From a virus (Duplodnaviria; Caudoviricetes), in IMG/VR virus record IMGVR_UViG_3300021400_000128, positions 72,916 to 136,915 of that record: 64,000 nucleotides of DNA; one strand, written 5' to 3'. The translations under genes were made by a program, and so were the position numbers. Of this stretch, positions 23,558 to 53,905 are shown piece by piece; positions within the stretch are counted from its first letter, which is position 1, and the number at the start of each line of letters is the position of its first letter. The notes beneath the pieces were generated by a model that saw nothing but the letters and a program-made list of their open reading frames with translations, was not told the origin of the DNA and made no database searches.

Positions 23558-24316
23558 TTATCCTCTCTGTTCATCTGTAGCACTGTTTCTCATCGGTGCT
23601 GTCCTGTGGAGACCGACTAAAACAGCATATGGCTTTCCATCGTTACTATGAAAAGGGTGCACTTTCACATAAGTCCTGATACTTTCACCGCTGTTATTTG
23701 TAACGAACGTCTCAAACTCCCATAAATAATCATTTTCTGGTATTCCATCTATTATAGGTGTCTGTCTTGCATCTAACACTCTCCTTAAATTTTCTGGAGT
23801 GAGTTGTGGCATTACCTGTTCTAATATTGCTTTATAATCTGGCATATCATTGTATTGTAAATAATTACGATTTTTTACTTTACCATCAAAAAACAAGAAT
23901 CCACCCTTTTCTGTTTCTATGTCTCCTGTAATTAGTCTGTTAACCGCATTGGTTTCAGGTGAGCCATTTCTATCTTCTGGAGACACTTTATCGTCATCAT
24001 TTAAATTATCAATTGCTAACATTCTTTGTAAGAATCCGACGACTTCCCTTCCGGTCTGTGGCAATGGAGTCATCGCTGCCCTGCCTGTAGCCGTCGGATT
24101 CTCGAATTTGTCTAATACACGGTTTTCCAGTGTCCGTAATATGTTTGTTCGCTGTTCTGCTATCGGCTCTGCCATATTTGCAAGAGCCATATGATCTTCA
24201 ATCGTTATATTGATATTATGAAAGCGATGATTGACAGGCTTCCCGTCTTTTCTGAAATAAATTCCGTTTCTTCTGTAATATCGTACCGCACCTGAATTGT
24301 CTCTGCCACCGCCCAT
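23558..24316 (-). CDS. MGG-leader protein with MqsR/RelE-like C-terminal domain
   Basis: MGGGRD start; KNRNYL...LTPEN...LWEF...TYVK...LVGLH; directly upstream of an MqsA-like gene. Confidence 0.55.
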   Translation of the reverse strand: MGGGRDNSGAVRYYRRNGIYFRKDGKPVNHRFHNINITIEDHMALANMAEPIAEQRTNILRTLENRVLDKFENPTATGRAAMTPLPQTGREVVGFLQRMLAIDNLNDDDKVSPEDRNGSPETNAVNRLITGDIETEKGGFLFFDGKVKNRNYLQYNDMPDYKAILEQVMPQLTPENLRRVLDARQTPIIDGIPENDYLWEFETFVTNNSGESIRTYVKVHPFHSNDGKPYAVLVGLHRTAPMRNSATDEQRG

Positions 24317-24386
24317 AGGGATGCCCTCCTTTTTCGATTAGGACACCCCTTCTTAGGGCGCATGTCACTCGATTTAATTATACAAC

Positions 24387-24502
24387 TTGACACTCCCCAT
24401 GCCTAAAGGCAGGGGATTCTTGCTTCACCCACCACAGCATGATTTTCATCACGTCTTACACGATGTCCACAAGCGTTGATTCCCGTGTGTCCCACGGTAT
24501 TT
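24387..24502 (-). ncRNA. TnpB omegaRNA (reRNA) scaffold overlapping the tnpB 3' end
   Basis: ACCGTGGGACACACGGG hairpin ... GTGAAGCAAGAATCCCC ... GTGTCAA. Confidence 0.8.
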
Positions 24503-25599
24503 TCTTTTAAAATTTCCAATCCTTTATTCAGAATGTTGATCGCTGCATTAGCATCACGATTATGATGAGTTCCACATTTTGGACAGTCCCATTCTCGGAT
24601 CGATAAATCCTTTACTTCAGGATTTTTATATCCGCATTGGTTACATGTCTGACTGCTTTCATAGAAGCGTGGTATTTTAACTAATATTCCTTTCCTGTCA
24701 CTCATCTTGTATTGCAGCATTCTGAAAAATTCACTCCAACTTACATCTGCGATTGATCGTGCTAATTTATGATTTTTCATCATTCCTTTGATGTTCAGAT
24801 CTTCAACACATACAACTTGATTCTCGTTTGCAAGTGTTGTTGTCACTTTATGAAGGAAATCTGTTCTGATATTAGTCACTTTTTCGTAAGCAATCGCAAC
24901 TTTTATTCTCTGCTTTTCTCTGTTGTTGCTCCCCTTTACTTTTTTTGACATTCTTCTTTGTGTTCTTGCAAGTTTTTTTGCGTATTTTTTATATGTTTTC
25001 GGATTCGGGATACTATTTTCATTACTGTCAACAAGAAAATCTTTGATCCCAACATCTATTCCAATAATGCCTCCGTTATTTGTCAATTCAGGTTCATCTG
25101 TCTCAACACAAAGCGAAACATAATACTTTCCACTCATCGATTTACTTATTGTTGCATTCAGGATTCGTCCATCGAAGTGTTTCAGTCCTTTATATCTGAC
25201 ATAACCGATTTTAGGTAGCTTGATTGTATTTGCGACAAGCCTAATTCCGTTACTCTGATTTCTTGTTCTGAAAGATTGTTTTCTTTTCTTTGAATGGAAC
25301 TTTGGGAATCCGGCATTCCTTTTGAAGAAATTTTGATAAGCCTTATCTAAATCCTTCAAAGTCTCTTGATATGCCATGCTGTCGGTCAGGTTTAGCCATT
25401 CTTGAGTTCCGTCTTTTTTTAGCTCCGTCAACAACCGCATCGTTTCATACATTGACACTGATTTCTTTTCTTCTTTGTATGACTTAATCCGAAGATCAAG
25501 AAAATGATTATATACATAGCGAACATTTCCAAATGTCTGCTCAATTTGGCTCTTTTGTTCTCTCGTTGGATATAATCTCGCCTTGTATCCTTTGTTCAT
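24403..25599 (-). CDS. tnpB: RNA-guided endonuclease TnpB
   Basis: YKARLYP HTH; RuvC GIDVG / VEDL / RDANAA; CNQC...CPKC. Confidence 0.95.
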   Translation of the reverse strand: MNKGYKARLYPTREQKSQIEQTFGNVRYVYNHFLDLRIKSYKEEKKSVSMYETMRLLTELKKDGTQEWLNLTDSMAYQETLKDLDKAYQNFFKRNAGFPKFHSKKRKQSFRTRNQSNGIRLVANTIKLPKIGYVRYKGLKHFDGRILNATISKSMSGKYYVSLCVETDEPELTNNGGIIGIDVGIKDFLVDSNENSIPNPKTYKKYAKKLARTQRRMSKKVKGSNNREKQRIKVAIAYEKVTNIRTDFLHKVTTTLANENQVVCVEDLNIKGMMKNHKLARSIADVSWSEFFRMLQYKMSDRKGILVKIPRFYESSQTCNQCGYKNPEVKDLSIREWDCPKCGTHHNRDANAAINILNKGLEILKENTVGHTGINACGHRVRRDENHAVVGEARIPCL

Positions 25600-29879: not shown

Positions 29880-30159
29880 TCCTTTCCTAACTCTTTTCGA
29901 GTTAATAACTCACTCCGAAGAGCGGTAAGCATACCTTCGCCAATGTTATCCCAAGGTTTTGTATGTCTGCATCACTGTTCCTTCCTCACAGAACTGTTTA
30001 AACACAGACCGTAGTGTTCGGAATTAGGTATTACGTCCCGAAGTACCTATATATTCTCAGGTAACGTAGTGCTCATGGCACTTAGGCTATTCAATGTGAA
30101 TTGCTTTTCGGTTTTTGCCATCAGCAATCCCCGAAGCTTTAGCTTCGTGGGTCATTGAA
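29880..30159 (-). ncRNA. IscB omegaRNA (HEARO-type)
   Basis: TTCAA...TTGAATAGCCTAAG...ACTACGTT...TTTAAACAGTTCTG...AACATTGGCGAAGG upstream of iscB. Confidence 0.88.
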
Positions 30160-33116: not shown

Positions 33117-33554
33117 TCAGGCAGTCACTTTGCGAAAGCTGACCGTCGGATTCCCGATCTTCTTGGCGATCCCGATTTCAGGGAATTGCTTTTCCAGCAC
33201 TTTAAGCGTTTTCCCGTCCCATGTCGTCTTACCGGACACCCAGCACGCCATCAGGGATTCACCCTTGACCGTCGCACCGCATTCAAGAACATCGTTCTTG
33301 ATTTCTGCTTCGAGCAGTCCGATCTGTTCGATCAGGTCGGCGTTCTTAGCTTCAAACTGTGCCATCAGTTCGTTATAGACGTTCCGAAGGTTGTTCAGGA
33401 CATCCAGCTTTTCTTCTGTTGTTACCTTTGTCGTTACGATTTGACATTCCTCATAATGGGGATTCTCTCTCGACAATGGCAATCCATTGAGCATAAAAGA
33501 GCTATCTCCGTGTGTCCCACGGTTCGTTTTTGTTACGATTTCGATGTTTTCCAT
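33117..33554 (-). CDS. Coiled-coil phage protein (Gam/Gp157-like) carrying an in-frame 99-bp omegaRNA insert
   Basis: C-terminal GKTTWDGK.L.....PEI...K.GNPTVSFR; roughly residues 9-38 derive from the omegaRNA. Confidence 0.6.
   Translation of the reverse strand: MENIEIVTKTNRGTHGDSSFMLNGLPLSRENPHYEECQIVTTKVTTEEKLDVLNNLRNVYNELMAQFEAKNADLIEQIGLLEAEIKNDVLECGATVKGESLMACWVSGKTTWDGKTLKVLEKQFPEIGIAKKIGNPTVSFRKVTA
33441..33524 (-). ncRNA. Immobilised TnpB omegaRNA copy inside a CDS
   Basis: 33458-33524 matches 52172-52238 at 66/67 nt; right-end hairpin shortened; no left end. Confidence 0.8.
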
Positions 33555-51886: not shown

Positions 51887-52138
51887 TCACTCTCGCCACT
51901 CCACTAAGAACATCGGTATCGGCATCCAACGCCTGACAAGCTCTTGTGGAACAAATCCTCTGTCTATTTCATCCATTGTCGGCGAATCTGTATAAAACAA
52001 ATGCTGGCTCTTTTCGTACCATGCTACTTTGACATTCTCGAAATTCGGATATACCCACCCGATATGGATAATTATCGCCTGATGATTTTCCGGCTGTTTA
52101 TCTTTGATATCGATCCATCCGACTTGTTCACTACGCAT
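51887..52138 (-). CDS. DUF551-like protein
   Basis: Near-duplicate of 51157-51411; start MRSEQ just outside the IS right end. Confidence 0.7.
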   Translation of the reverse strand: MRSEQVGWIDIKDKQPENHQAIIIHIGWVYPNFENVKVAWYEKSQHLFYTDSPTMDEIDRGFVPQELVRRWMPIPMFLVEWRE

Positions 52139-52146
52139 TTTCACGC

Positions 52147-52240
52147 TTGACACTCCCCATGCCTAAAGGCAGGGGATTCTCTCTCGACAATGGCAATCCA
52201 TTGAGCATAAAAGAGCTATCCCCGTGTGTCCCACGGTTTT
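52147..52240 (-). ncRNA. Right-end omegaRNA of the adjacent TnpB
   Basis: ACCGTGGGACACACGGGGATAGCTC...GAGAGAATCCCC...GTGTCAA. Confidence 0.85.
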
Positions 52241-52248
52241 TATCAATG

Positions 52249-53379
52249 CTATTGTGCATATAATAACAACCCTTGTTTTCTGATATTGATAGCAGCATTC
52301 AAGTCTCTGTTGTGAACTGTTCCGCACTCAGGACATATCCAACTCCTATCACCTAATTTCAATTCAGCATTTACATATCCGCACTGATTACACGTTTTTG
52401 AAGAAGGAAACCACTTGTCTATCGCGATGAGCTTCTTTCCACGCTCAATCAGTTTATAGGACAGAAATGTTCTAAATTGTCCGAAACCGTTATCAGTCGT
52501 TGCTTTGGCAAGGTGTAAACCCTGTGACATTGCCTTATAGTCAATATCTTCCACGGCAATAATATCATATTGATCCGCAAGTTTGGTGCTCAACTTGTGC
52601 TGCCAATCTTGCCGACAATTGCGTACTTTTTCAAACGCACGAGCAACCTTGATTCTCTGCTTTTCCCAATTTGAGCTTCCTTTTTGTTTTCTGGATAATC
52701 TCCGTTGTTCACGTGCCAATTTTCGTTCCGCTTCACGGTAGAAATGGGGCATATCTGCTTTATTTCCTTCGCTATCCACATAAAAATGTGGGGAACTGTA
52801 ATCAAGCCCGATTGAATTTTCAGTATTCAGTTCACGTTCAGGAATATCAAGCTCATACTCAAACCCGATGGATACAAAATACTTTCCACTCGGTTCCTGG
52901 GACACTGTAGCATTCAGGATTCTTGCTCCTTCCGGTAATTTTCGGCACAGCTTTGTTTTCACTATTCCTAATTTTGGAAGGCGCACATTCCCGTTCTCAA
53001 TCCGCGTAACATTGTCGCATCCGACCGTTTGATAGGATTTTTGATTATCCTTCTTGCGCTTGAATTTCGGGAATCCAGGAGTACCACCCTTTTTTACGTT
53101 CCTGAAGAAATTCTGATACGCAGTATTCAGGTTACGGAGCGCACATTGCAAGGCGTTTTTATCCGGTTCTTTCAGCCATTCGTATTCATTCTTCAAGTCA
53201 GTAAGCATCTTGTTCTGCTGAAAAAATGATCTGCTTTCACCGTTTTCTTTATAAGCGGTGATTCTATCAAAAAGGAAGTGATTATAAACAAAGCGAACAC
53301 ATCCGAAAGTCTTCTGAATCAGCTCTTCTTGCTGCTTATTTGGATAAATTCTGTATTTGTATGCTTTATTTGAAATCAT
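52249..53379 (-). CDS. tnpB: RNA-guided endonuclease TnpB (CRISPR-adjacent), RuvC D-E-D intact
   Basis: KAYKYRIYP; IGLDYS / VEDI / RDLNAA; CNQC...CPEC. Confidence 0.95.
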   Translation of the reverse strand: MISNKAYKYRIYPNKQQEELIQKTFGCVRFVYNHFLFDRITAYKENGESRSFFQQNKMLTDLKNEYEWLKEPDKNALQCALRNLNTAYQNFFRNVKKGGTPGFPKFKRKKDNQKSYQTVGCDNVTRIENGNVRLPKLGIVKTKLCRKLPEGARILNATVSQEPSGKYFVSIGFEYELDIPERELNTENSIGLDYSSPHFYVDSEGNKADMPHFYREAERKLAREQRRLSRKQKGSSNWEKQRIKVARAFEKVRNCRQDWQHKLSTKLADQYDIIAVEDIDYKAMSQGLHLAKATTDNGFGQFRTFLSYKLIERGKKLIAIDKWFPSSKTCNQCGYVNAELKLGDRSWICPECGTVHNRDLNAAINIRKQGLLLYAQ

Positions 53380-53396
53380 TTTTCTTCCTTTTTACG

Positions 53397-53546
53397 AATT
53401 TTGCAGTCGTCTATACCCTCTTTTGGTAGGGGCTATCATCGGTTGGTATATACGTACCTAATTTAACAGGTGTCTATACCTTGGCTGCTATGTAGTAACC
53501 GGGGTTCTTTGGTATATACGTACCTAATTTAACAGGTGTCTATACC
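53397..53546 (-). CRISPR. Mini CRISPR array: two identical 36-nt repeats + degenerate terminal repeat, spacers 30 and 27 nt
   Basis: GGTATAGACACCTGTTAAATTAGGTACGTATATACC at 53511-53546 and 53445-53480; 17/21 match at 53397-53417. Confidence 0.85.
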
Positions 53547-53547
53547 T

Positions 53548-53675
53548 GGTATATTATCTTGTAAAATAAGGTACGAACTTCTTGCTTCACCGACCGCTCA
53601 GTGCAATCTCCACAAGCGTTATGTTCCCGCATACCCTGCGGTACAGTTTTAACAGTGTTTCACTGTGTTGCACTT
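53548..53675 (-). ncRNA. omegaRNA-derived tracrRNA-like scaffold with anti-repeat
   Basis: Shares TTCTTGCTTCACC and TCCACAAGCGTT with the omegaRNA at 24417-24477; anti-repeat 53548-53575 (21/28); TATAAT at 53679-53684. Confidence 0.8.
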
Positions 53676-53709
53676 ATTATTATACTCAATATCCTTGTTT
53701 TGTACAGGT

Positions 53710-53736
53710 ATTAGTGTAAAATAGTGTTACACTAAT
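53710..53736. promoter_or_regulatory. Palindromic operator in a divergent promoter region
   Basis: ATTAGTGTAA-7nt-TTACACTAAT overlaps the TG-TAAAAT -10 of the RHH gene. Confidence 0.65.
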
Positions 53737-53752
53737 TTGAAAGGCGGTTGCT

Positions 53753-53905
53753 ATGGTTTCCGATAACAATACCCGTGTCATGGTCACTATCCCGAAAGAG
53801 TTGAAAGAACAGTTGTCTGTCATTGCAGAAAATGAAGGACGCTCCCTTTCTAACCTCATTGTCCAGATTCTAAAAAATTATGTAAATGAATCCTTGACCC
53901 CATAG
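53753..53905 (+). CDS. Ribbon-helix-helix (CopG/Arc-like) regulator, 50 aa (below ORF-track cutoff)
   Basis: MVSDNNTRVMVTIPKELKEQLSVIAENEGRSLSNLIVQILKNYVNESLTP; GAAAGG RBS. Confidence 0.85.
   Translation: MVSDNNTRVMVTIPKELKEQLSVIAENEGRSLSNLIVQILKNYVNESLTP

What the first reader, a model, noticed from the sequence alone, without database searches (positions are those of the whole stretch)
53443..53641. Compensatory co-variation of the omegaRNA pseudoknot with the CRISPR repeat 3' end
In the ordinary elements the 5' hairpin CCGTG-GGACA-CACGG (24483-24497, 52222-52236) has a loop that can pair with the right-end terminus TGTC|AA. In the tracr-like copy the hairpin is CCGCA-GGGTA-TGCGG (53627-53641). 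Its stem shows a compensatory change, and its loop GGTA now complements the repeat terminus TACC. Both spacers begin with AA, recreating TACC-AA in place of TGTC-AA. The predicted 5' end AGTGCAA also pairs with internal TTGCACT. This argues the RNA is under functional selection rather than a chance juxtaposition; the effective handle may be 38 nt.
Basis: partly seen in the sequence, partly recalled or inferred. Interest (0 to 1): 0.8.

Follow-up and report, generated by a model that had tools for sequence, protein, structure and literature searches.

The report
Pseudoknot kept in a split TnpB guide
In a phage-borne transposon nuclease (TnpB) whose guide RNA is turning into a helper RNA plus a tiny CRISPR array, a 4-base pairing between a hairpin loop and the end of each repeat is real and kept by matched mutations. 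It is a clean new example of a known kind (TranC-like intermediates), not a new principle.

Summary
The main observation is confirmed. All three hairpins sit exactly at the stated coordinates. The loop G-GGUA (53632-53636, minus strand) complements the UACC that ends both repeats.

This pairing is the known ISDra2-type omegaRNA pseudoknot. On 43 aligned scaffolds, 98.3% of loop/tail cells pair. Shuffled controls give 71% and slid registers give 13-45%. Six pairing "codes" occur: GAAC:GUUC, GACA:UGUC, GAUG:CAUC, GGAG:CUCC, GGUA:UACC and GUUA:UAAC.

Among the close relatives that carry the same tracr and mini-array module (82-96% protein identity), loop and repeat ends switch together: GGUA:UACC in three loci and GUUA:UAAC in three.

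The first A after the repeat belongs to the pseudoknot. It forms a G.A pair that flips to A.G in three scaffolds.

The claimed AGTGCAA:TTGCACT pairing is present here. It is not conserved and clashes with a conserved local hairpin, so it is probably chance.

New points:
- The recoded repeat ends have lost the transposase cleavage motif TCA[A/C].
- Each free repeat also carries a 5' copy of the loop strand and can fold on itself. That is a rival partner for the tail.

The kind is published (TranC, Jin et al. 2025). This scan has met similar phage cases on other genomes.

The parts
53679..53706 (-). Sigma-70-like promoter (TGTACA, 16-nt spacer, TATAAT) for the tracr/array transcript. The start is predicted near 53673.
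   Evidence: A TATAAT is conserved at the same place in L001, L331 and L334.
53652..53666 (-). 5' hairpin ACAGUG-AAA-CACUGU. It corresponds to the palindromes AGTGTAACAT/ATGTTACACT of relatives. It may be an RNA hairpin, an operator of the divergent RHH protein, or both.
53627..53641 (-). Pseudoknot hairpin CCGCA-GGGUA-UGCGG. The loop strand GGUA is 53632-53635. G53636 faces the A after the tail.
53581..53616 (-). Helix A (CUUGU with GCAAG) enclosing the internal hairpin GAUUGC-ACUGA-GCGGUC. This is the canonical omegaRNA core, ACGCUUGUGGAG...GGUGAAGCAAGAA.
   Evidence: helix 27-31 with 92-96 is 98.6% paired and all 5 pairs change on both sides.
53548..53575 (-). 28-nt anti-repeat, 75% complementary to the first 28 nt of the repeat. 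It takes the place of the 5' strand of omegaRNA stem 4.
   Evidence: (inverted repeats I1 and I2).
53509..53547 (-). Repeat 1, joined to the anti-repeat by one base. The tail UACC is 53511-53514 and the following AA is 53509-53510.
53482..53508 (-). Spacer 1 (27 nt).
   Evidence: No target was found.
53443..53481 (-). Repeat 2, identical to repeat 1. The tail UACC is 53445-53448 and the following AA is 53443-53444.
53419..53442 (-). Spacer 2 (24 nt).
   Evidence: No target was found.
53397..53417 (-). Degenerate terminal repeat. Only the 5' part is kept and there is no tail. It runs into the ribosome-binding site of tnpB.
   Evidence: (family D2).
52249..53379 (-). tnpB, 376 aa, ISDra2-like. 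The RuvC residues D193, E277 and D359 and the zinc-finger cysteines are conserved.
52147..52236 (-). The element's own 3' omegaRNA and right end. Its pseudoknot is GACA:UGUC and it ends TCAA.
53753..53905 (+). Divergent 50-aa ribbon-helix-helix gene (RHH_5), conserved next to the module.
   Evidence: The same gene is seen.
24387..24497 (-). Comparison omegaRNA of the second TnpB (24403-25599). It has the same canonical core as the tracr copy and the pseudoknot GACA:UGUC.

Best explanation
The stretch is the core of a guide-RNA module on the minus strand, derived from an IS200/IS605 omegaRNA.

Layout:
- A promoter near 53680-53706 drives an omegaRNA-type scaffold (about 53673 to 53549).
- The last stem of that scaffold (stem 4) has been stretched into a 28-nt anti-repeat paired with repeat 1.
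- A spacer, an identical repeat 2, a second spacer and a degenerate repeat follow.
- Then comes an ISDra2-like tnpB, which still has its own ordinary omegaRNA at the right end of the element.

Mechanism:
- The 5-nt loop of the 5' hairpin (G-GGUA) pairs with the four nucleotides UACC that close the repeat.
- The loop's first G faces the A that follows the tail.
- Together with the hairpin stem this makes an H-type pseudoknot. In TnpB and Cas12f complexes, this pseudoknot sits next to the guide and positions it.

What is shown and what is inferred:
- Shown: the pairing is kept by compensatory substitutions across the omegaRNA family, and between relatives that carry the same module.
- Inferred: that the RNA is made, that this TnpB loads it, and that the free second repeat uses the tracr loop in trans.
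- My inference on the recoding: the tail changed from U to C or A at position -4, and this removed the transposase cleavage motif TCA[A/C] from the internal copies. That would explain why the loop had to change too.
For: 1. Exact sequences and coordinates.

2. Alignment A2 of 43 scaffolds.
- Pseudoknot columns 8-11 with 172-175 are 98.3% paired. Pair types are AU 28, GU 9, UA 3, GC 2 at one pair; AU 26, CG 10, UA 5 at the next; and CG 24, AU 14 at the third.
- The covariation score is 0.685 against 0.19 in shuffles. None of 500 shuffles reached it.
- Slid registers gave 13-45% paired.

3. G8-C175 is invariant in 43 of 43 scaffolds. The first loop nucleotide and the first nucleotide after the tail are G and A in 40 scaffolds, and A and G in L260, L285 and L007. 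This matches ISDra2, where -105G pairs with -3C and -106G faces -2A (PMC10097598).

4. Loci with the module.
- The window, L329 and L343 have loop GGUA and tails UACC.
- L001/L332, L331 and L334 have loop GUUA and tails UAAC.
- L328 shows tails UAAC but its loop is cut off.
- Of 12 tails in loci where the loop is also seen, 10 are perfect, 1 has a wobble (UAGC) and 1 has a mismatch (UCAC).

5. MFE folds leave both loop and tail unpaired, in the same architecture, in L001's first unit and in the ordinary omegaRNA.

6. L330 shows what decay looks like: the hairpin and tails are lost.

7. The protein is a full-length relative of ISDra2 TnpB (E 5e-85) with the catalytic residues conserved.

8. T at position -4 occurs in 37 of 38 transposon omegaRNAs and in 0 of 5 tracr-fused units. 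IS608's right-end cleavage site is TCAA (PMC3201880).
Against: - There is no expression or processing data.
- Within the module-bearing clade there are only two pseudoknot codes, so only one or two independent switches. The protein tree needs 2, and the AU test against a single switch gives p = 0.03 with the group named after seeing the tree.
- The shuffle control does not correct for relatedness.
- The scaffold core resembles the omegaRNA of the distant TnpB (46% identical protein), not the neighbour's own omegaRNA. The user protein is therefore inferred from synteny only.
- Free repeats can fold on themselves and bury the tail.
- L334's first unit has a mismatch in the pseudoknot.
Confidence: 0.8

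Rival explanations
1. For the free (downstream) repeats, the tail pairs in cis with the repeat's own 5' end (GGUAUA... or GUUAUACAC...). Each repeat would then be a self-contained 'closing helix plus stem-loop' handle, like a Cas12a-type crRNA. The tracr loop would serve only the fused first unit.
For: - Every free repeat folds on itself, at -9.9 to -14.9 kcal/mol with z-scores of -2.3 to -4.4.
- Position 2 of the repeat (G or U) co-varies with tail position -4 (C or A), exactly as the tracr loop does.
- L001 and L334 have a closed short stem 4 and no extended anti-repeat for a downstream repeat to pair with.
Against: - The cis helix has 1 mismatch in the window and 2 in L343.
- The window's 28-nt anti-repeat covers the repeat's 5' end, which would free the tail.
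- First units in L001, L334 and L329 have no such 5' strand yet keep loop/tail complementarity.
- TnpB-size proteins are known to need the rest of the scaffold (PMC10097598).
Confidence: 0.3
2. The upstream scaffold and repeats are a decaying remnant of a foreign IS right end (a nested insertion) with no present function. The complementarity would be inherited from the ancestral omegaRNA.
For: - The core is of a different omegaRNA subtype from the neighbour's own.
- There are only 1-3 spacers and no cas1/cas2 nearby.
- No targets were found.
- L330 shows the module can decay.
Against: - The code is not the ancestral one, and it changed again within the clade in the loop and all tails together.
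- Hairpin stems and the internal hairpin change only by compensatory or wobble substitutions.
- The promoter and synteny are conserved in at least 7 loci, and every spacer differs between loci. That indicates turnover, not drift.
Confidence: 0.08
3. The RNA is real but is used in trans by another TnpB of the phage with the same canonical-core omegaRNA. The candidates are the genes at 24403-25599 and at G000:68490-69581. The adjacent gene would not be the user.
For: The scaffold core (ACGCUUGUGGAG...GGUGAAGCAAGAA) matches those omegaRNAs and not the neighbour's (GCUCUUUUAUGC...UCGAGAGAGAA).
Against: - The module is always directly upstream of, and on the same strand as, the P0001-type gene. It lies inside the same IS ends, in different phage contexts.
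- The overall helix plan is shared by both subtypes.
- Published TranC effectors are reported to use both a split guide and their reRNA. This rests on citing papers only.
Confidence: 0.12
4. The loop/tail complementarity in the window is a chance 4-nt match.
For: Four nucleotides is short. Within the window alone the prior is about 1%.
Against: Family-wide covariation, with registers slid by one to three columns failing. A second matched code occurs in relatives.
Confidence: 0.02

Closest known systems
ISDra2 TnpB omegaRNA pseudoknot (cryo-EM; Nakagawa et al. 2023, PMC10097598)
   Same: - The protein is colinear with ISDra2 TnpB (E 5e-85).
- The pseudoknot joins a 5' segment to nucleotides -6..-3 next to the guide, with an invariant G-C at -3 and a G.A at -2.
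- A stem 4 with a UUUA-type loop precedes the tail in the ordinary copies.
   Different: - Here the 5' strand is the loop of a compact 5-5-5 hairpin.
- In the tracr copy, stem 4 is replaced by a 28-nt anti-repeat:repeat hairpin.
- The unit lies upstream of tnpB and is followed by a second repeat and spacer.
TranC, transposon-CRISPR intermediates (Jin et al., Cell 2025;188:6283). The paper is not held; it is known here through PMC13565253, PMC13639567 and bioRxiv 10.64898/2026.03.27.714800, which includes the phage-borne TnpB-sized CauTranC9.
   Same: - A TnpB-derived nuclease with a tracrRNA and CRISPR repeats made by splitting the transposon guide RNA.
- No adaptation genes.
- Small arrays.
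- Phage location, as for CauTranC9, and similar repeat length (36-39 nt here, against 38 bp for clade 9 and 32 or 36 bp for clade 3).
   Different: - The protein is only 376 aa and is distant from the solved LaTranC (E 8e-25, C-terminal part only).
- The element still has both IS ends and its own omegaRNA.
- The array has 2 repeats.
- Relatives at 70-73% identity lack the module.
- Clade membership could not be tested.
Cas12f (type V-F) tracrRNA:crRNA, repeat:anti-repeat 1 pseudoknot
   Same: The 3' end of the repeat pairs with a 5' part of the tracrRNA to form the pseudoknot beside the guide. A second repeat:anti-repeat duplex corresponds to omegaRNA stem 4 (as stated in PMC10097598).
   Different: The protein here is not a Cas12f: PDB matches are only E 1e-8 to 1e-4, with no REC/WED expansions. 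The first repeat is still covalently joined to the scaffold.
IS608 right-end cleavage site C_R (TCAA) and its guide G_R (He et al. 2011, PMC3201880)
   Same: Ordinary elements here end TCA[A/C]. The last base co-varies with the base just 5' of the stem-4 foot.
   Different: The array repeats and tracr-fused units end [C/A]CA[A/U/C], so they have lost this motif.

Membership tests
IS200/IS605 (ISDra2-type) TnpB omegaRNA | An associated TnpB with an intact RuvC D-E-D triad and zinc finger | tested here: met
   D193, E277, D359 and the cysteines are invariant in 54 homologues. Pfam gives PF12323, PF01385 and PF07282. Match to ISDra2 TnpB 8H1J/8EXA at E 5e-85 over the full length.
IS200/IS605 (ISDra2-type) TnpB omegaRNA | A pseudoknot between a 5' segment and nucleotides -6..-3 adjoining the guide | tested here: met
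   98.3% paired over 43 scaffolds. Three of four pairs change on both sides. Controls are far lower.
IS200/IS605 (ISDra2-type) TnpB omegaRNA | Lies at or over the 3' end of tnpB and ends at the transposon right end (TnpA cleavage site) | tested here: not met
   The tracr copy lies upstream of tnpB and its units end CCAA, not TCA[A/C]. The ordinary copies at 52147-52236 and 24387-24497 do meet this feature.
TranC (transposon-CRISPR intermediate) | A TnpB-derived effector next to a CRISPR-like array | tested here: met
   Two identical 39-nt units with a 66-nt period, plus a degenerate third, directly upstream of tnpB. Relatives have 1-3 repeats, and all spacers differ between loci.
TranC (transposon-CRISPR intermediate) | A tracrRNA homologous to the front of the transposon guide RNA, ending in an anti-repeat | tested here: met
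   The scaffold aligns with omegaRNAs helix by helix. The 28-nt anti-repeat is 75% complementary to the repeat.
TranC (transposon-CRISPR intermediate) | Nuclease activity guided by the split RNA (and by the reRNA) | not testable with these tools
This needs a bench assay.
TranC (transposon-CRISPR intermediate) | Placement in one of the published TranC clades | not testable with these tools
   The paper and the sequence tables are not held. Similarity to LaTranC is only weak.
Cas12f / type V-F | A Cas12f-type effector with expanded REC/WED domains | tested here: not met
   The best solved relatives are TnpBs. Cas12f chains match only at E 1e-8 to 3e-4, over the RuvC half.
Any curated Rfam family | A match at the family's gathering score | tested here: not met
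   Only HEARO at 29925-30159 passes. Permissive scans of 52100-53760 and 24300-24700 give noise only, with E above 0.7.

The most novel reading that the evidence does not exclude
This reading has three linked parts.

1. The pseudoknot recoding marks the domestication step itself. Tail position -4 belongs both to the RNA pseudoknot and to the DNA cleavage motif TCA[A/C] read by the transposase. Changing U to C or A at that position made the internal right-end copies uncleavable, so the array cannot be excised. It also forced a matching change in the loop.

2. Each repeat acquired a 5' copy of the loop strand. The repeats therefore already form a self-contained 'pseudoknot-like helix plus stem' handle.

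3. If both hold, the family would show three stages side by side in close relatives:
- a one-piece guide (L001 and L334 first units);
- a tracr-dependent split guide (the window, with its 28-nt anti-repeat);
- an incipient tracr-independent, Cas12a-like palindromic repeat.
Probability: 0.25. Interest if true: 0.75.

Novelty: new member of a known kind. Interest (0 to 1): 0.5.

Why it matters
Structural work proposed that Cas12 guide RNAs arose by splitting or condensing the TnpB omegaRNA while keeping a guide-pseudoknot-stem core. The TranC work then supplied intermediates.

This locus and its relatives give a very young, base-by-base view of that step:
- The transposon ends and the ordinary omegaRNA are still present.
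- Relatives at 70-73% protein identity lack the module.
- Relatives at 82-96% identity show different degrees of splitting.
- The pseudoknot has been recoded twice, with matched changes in the loop and in every repeat.

This yields simple swap-and-rescue experiments on a 376-aa nuclease. It also gives a concrete hypothesis for how a guide-RNA end stops being a transposon end. It does not change the current picture.

Tried and rejected
- **Rfam.** No family covers the scaffold.

- **Loose DNA pattern scans.** The pattern sent to genome contigs and metagenome contigs had only 18 fixed bases. Of 244 pattern hits in the loci held at that point, only 10 had the full motif context, and 4 of those were the window's own locus, two copies of L001's contig, and L007. 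The few real hits (L105, L131, L133, L137, L244) are ordinary omegaRNAs and were not put into the formal count.

- **Protospacer searches.** Exact 20-mers of four spacers found nothing in IMG/VR, or only the source contig itself. Spacer 1 found nothing in INPHARED. In the phage's own genome there was only a 13-nt core match, judged to be chance. This shows no target in these collections only.

- **Extending the pseudoknot to a fifth Watson-Crick pair (columns 12 with 171).** Rejected. It holds in some scaffolds and fails in L252, L254, L261 and L329.

- **Repeat 5' part as a copy of the IS left end, or spacers ending in a common TAM.** Rejected. Left ends of relatives look different, and the spacer 3' ends share no motif.

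- **'Orthogonality' of the pseudoknot code.** The same phage also carries omegaRNAs with GACA:UGUC three times and GAAC:GUUC once. The idea that the new code avoids these is possible but untested, and I rate it below the cleavage-site explanation.

Full report
**Setting**

The window is the right 64 kb of a complete 136,915-bp virus record with direct terminal repeats. Everything relevant is on the minus strand.

A 376-aa TnpB (P0001, 52249-53379) is colinear with ISDra2 TnpB (E 5e-85 over residues 1-372). It carries the three OrfB/TnpB Pfam domains. The RuvC residues D193, E277 and D359 and the zinc-finger cysteines are invariant in 54 homologues.

Downstream lies an ordinary omegaRNA and right end (52147-52236).

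Upstream, in order, lie:
- a sigma-70-like promoter (53679-53706);
- an omegaRNA-like scaffold;
- a 28-nt anti-repeat (53548-53575);
- two identical 39-nt repeat units with a 66-nt period;
- a degenerate third repeat.

A divergent 50-aa RHH_5 gene (53753-53905) and a left-end-type hairpin lie beyond. The whole module therefore sits inside one IS element.

The phage has two more TnpB genes, at 24403-25599 in the window and at G000:68490-69581. It also has a solo scaffold at 33441-33544 and an IscB-type HEARO RNA.

**Checking the observation**

The three hairpins are at exactly the stated coordinates.
- Ordinary copies read CCGUG-GGACA-CACGG, with a scaffold end ...GAGUGUC-AA.
- The tracr copy reads CCGCA-GGGUA-UGCGG, and both repeats end ...UAUACC-AA.
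- The two stem differences are compensatory.
- GGUA is the exact complement of UACC.

**Is it more than chance?**

I collected relatives of P0001 from IMG/VR and from metagenome assemblies.

I cut 38 transposon-borne omegaRNAs and 5 tracr-fused first units from the hairpin to two bases past the tail, then aligned them (A2).

Results for the loop/tail pairing (columns 8-11 with 172-175):
- It holds in 98.3% of cells.
- Shuffles gave 70.9%, and none of 500 reached the observed value.
- Partners slid by one to three columns gave 13-45%.
- Three of the four pairs change on both sides.

The codes seen are GAAC:GUUC, GACA:UGUC, GAUG:CAUC (L252), GGAG:CUCC (L007), GGUA:UACC and GUUA:UAAC, with G.U variants.

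The hairpin stem and a second helix (columns 27-31 with 92-96) are equally well supported. The tracr copy therefore shares the whole helix plan of the family.

The shuffle control ignores relatedness. The slid-register control and the number of distinct codes do not depend on it.

**Identity with the solved structure**

In ISDra2, -5U to -3C pair with -103A to -105G. In addition, -6G and -2A make non-canonical pairs with -102U and -106G (PMC10097598).

Here:
- G8-C175 is invariant in 43 of 43 scaffolds.
- The preceding loop base and the base after the tail are G and A in 40 scaffolds.
- They are A and G in L260, L285 and L007.

In 13 repeat ends from 7 loci that A is invariant, while the next base varies (A 9 times, U twice, C twice).

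**The module in relatives**

The tracr and array module occurs only in a clade of 82-96% protein identity, which has 100/99 support. Relatives at 70-73% identity (L338, L339) have the RHH gene and tnpB but no scaffold or repeats. L249 at 67% and the other IMG/VR relatives also have none.

Pseudoknot codes within the clade:

| Locus | Loop | Tails |
|---|---|---|
| window | GGUA | UACC, twice |
| L329 | GGUA | UACC |
| L343 | GGUA | UACC, twice |
| L001 / L332 | GUUA | UAAC, twice |
| L331 | GUUA | UAAC, twice |
| L334 | GUUA | UCAC, UAAC, UAGC |
| L328 | cut off | UAAC |

One G-C pair has therefore become U-A in the loop and in every repeat of the array together.

On the protein tree this needs two changes. 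An AU test against a single GUUA clade gives p = 0.03, but the group was named after seeing the tree. The conclusion is one or two events, or exchange of the RNA module between lineages.

L330 shows a decayed state. It has the scaffold core only, with no hairpin and no tail, and its 3' omegaRNA is truncated. All spacers differ between loci.

**Degrees of splitting**

- L001 and L334 have first units that are complete 90-91-nt omegaRNA-like single guides with a short stem 4, for example GUACC-AAA-GGUAC. Their fold is the same as that of the ordinary omegaRNA, with loop and tail free.
- L331 has an anti-repeat of about 18 nt.
- The window has a 28-nt anti-repeat joined to repeat 1 by one base.

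**What does not hold**

AGTGCAA (53668-53674) and TTGCACT (53600-53606) are complementary. However:
- The pairing is absent from the MFE and centroid structures.
- It is not conserved.
- TTGCACT lies in a conserved local hairpin, GAUYGC-RCUGA-GCGGUC.
- The 5' motif belongs to palindromes of the type AGTGTAACAT/ATGTTACACT. These recur around the promoter in all loci that carry the RHH gene, and they look like operator sites or a 5' hairpin.

**Two additions**

First, the cleavage motif.
- In 37 of 38 transposon omegaRNAs, tail position -4 is U and the end reads TCA[A/C].
- The last base co-varies with the base 5' of the stem-4 foot: T with A 8 times, G or A with C 26 times.
- This is as expected for the TnpA cleavage site and its guide in IS608 (TCAA; PMC3201880).
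- All five tracr-fused units and all array repeats have C or A at -4.
- I infer that the recoding removed an internal transposase cleavage site and forced the loop change.

Second, self-folding repeats.
- Every free repeat has a 5' end complementary to its own tail and folds on itself, at -9.9 to -14.9 kcal/mol.
- Repeat position 2 co-varies with tail position -4.
- The tail therefore has two possible partners in downstream crRNAs. This is the main open point.

**Who uses the RNA?**

The scaffold core matches the omegaRNAs of the other two TnpBs of the phage rather than the neighbour's own. Synteny in at least seven loci favours the neighbour, but this remains an inference.

**Comparison and verdict**

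The pseudoknot's conservation from TnpB to Cas12 guides and the splitting hypothesis are published (PMC10097598). TranC intermediates are published too, including a TnpB-sized one on a phage (Jin et al. 2025 via PMC13565253 and PMC13639567; bioRxiv 10.64898/2026.03.27.714800).

Earlier follow-ups of this scan reported similar phage cases on other genomes.

This is a well-supported new member of a known kind. Its useful extras are a young lineage with an intact IS, graded intermediates, a pseudoknot code that changed again within the module-bearing clade, and loss of the cleavage motif.

Noticed in passing
window 29925-30159 (-): HEARO RNA (the IscB-type omegaRNA, RF02033), 130.7 bits over the full-length model. 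The phage therefore also carries an IscB-type element.
   Followed up: no
window 33441-33544 (-): A solo omegaRNA scaffold of the P0001 type without tnpB, inside a short reading frame. It is flanked on both sides by ATCGTAAC. The pseudoknot GACA:UGUC is kept and stem 4 is shortened.
   Followed up: partly
G000:C1:68490-69581 (-), outside the window; locus L342: A third TnpB (45% identical to P0001). Its canonical-core omegaRNA has the pseudoknot GAAC:GUUC and ends UUCAC.
   Followed up: partly
alignment A2 columns 99 and 177 (e.g. window 52147-52236): The last base of the right end (A or C) co-varies with the base just 5' of stem 4: T with A 8 times, G or A with C 26 times. This fits the IS608-type guide/cleavage-site pairing read by TnpA on DNA.
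   Followed up: partly
window 53753-53905 (+) and 53710-53736: A divergent RHH_5 gene and a perfect 10-bp inverted repeat between it and the tracr promoter. Related palindromes occur in L001, L331 and L334. The RHH gene is also next to tnpB in relatives that lack the tracr and array (L338, L339). It is absent in L329 and L343.
   Followed up: partly
L330:1392-1503 and 2640-2720: A decayed relative (82% protein identity). The upstream scaffold core lacks the hairpin and tails, and the 3' omegaRNA is cut before stem 4.
   Followed up: partly
window 53443-53481 and 53509-53547; L001:2399-2440; L343:1092-1130: Free repeats are end-to-end self-complementary (6-9 bp) around an inner stem-loop. This resembles palindromic, tracr-independent type V repeats.
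   Followed up: partly
window 53377-53419 (-): A sub-threshold Rfam match (DUF2815 RNA, 19.2 bits, E 1.8) over the degenerate repeat and the ribosome-binding site. It is probably noise.
   Followed up: no
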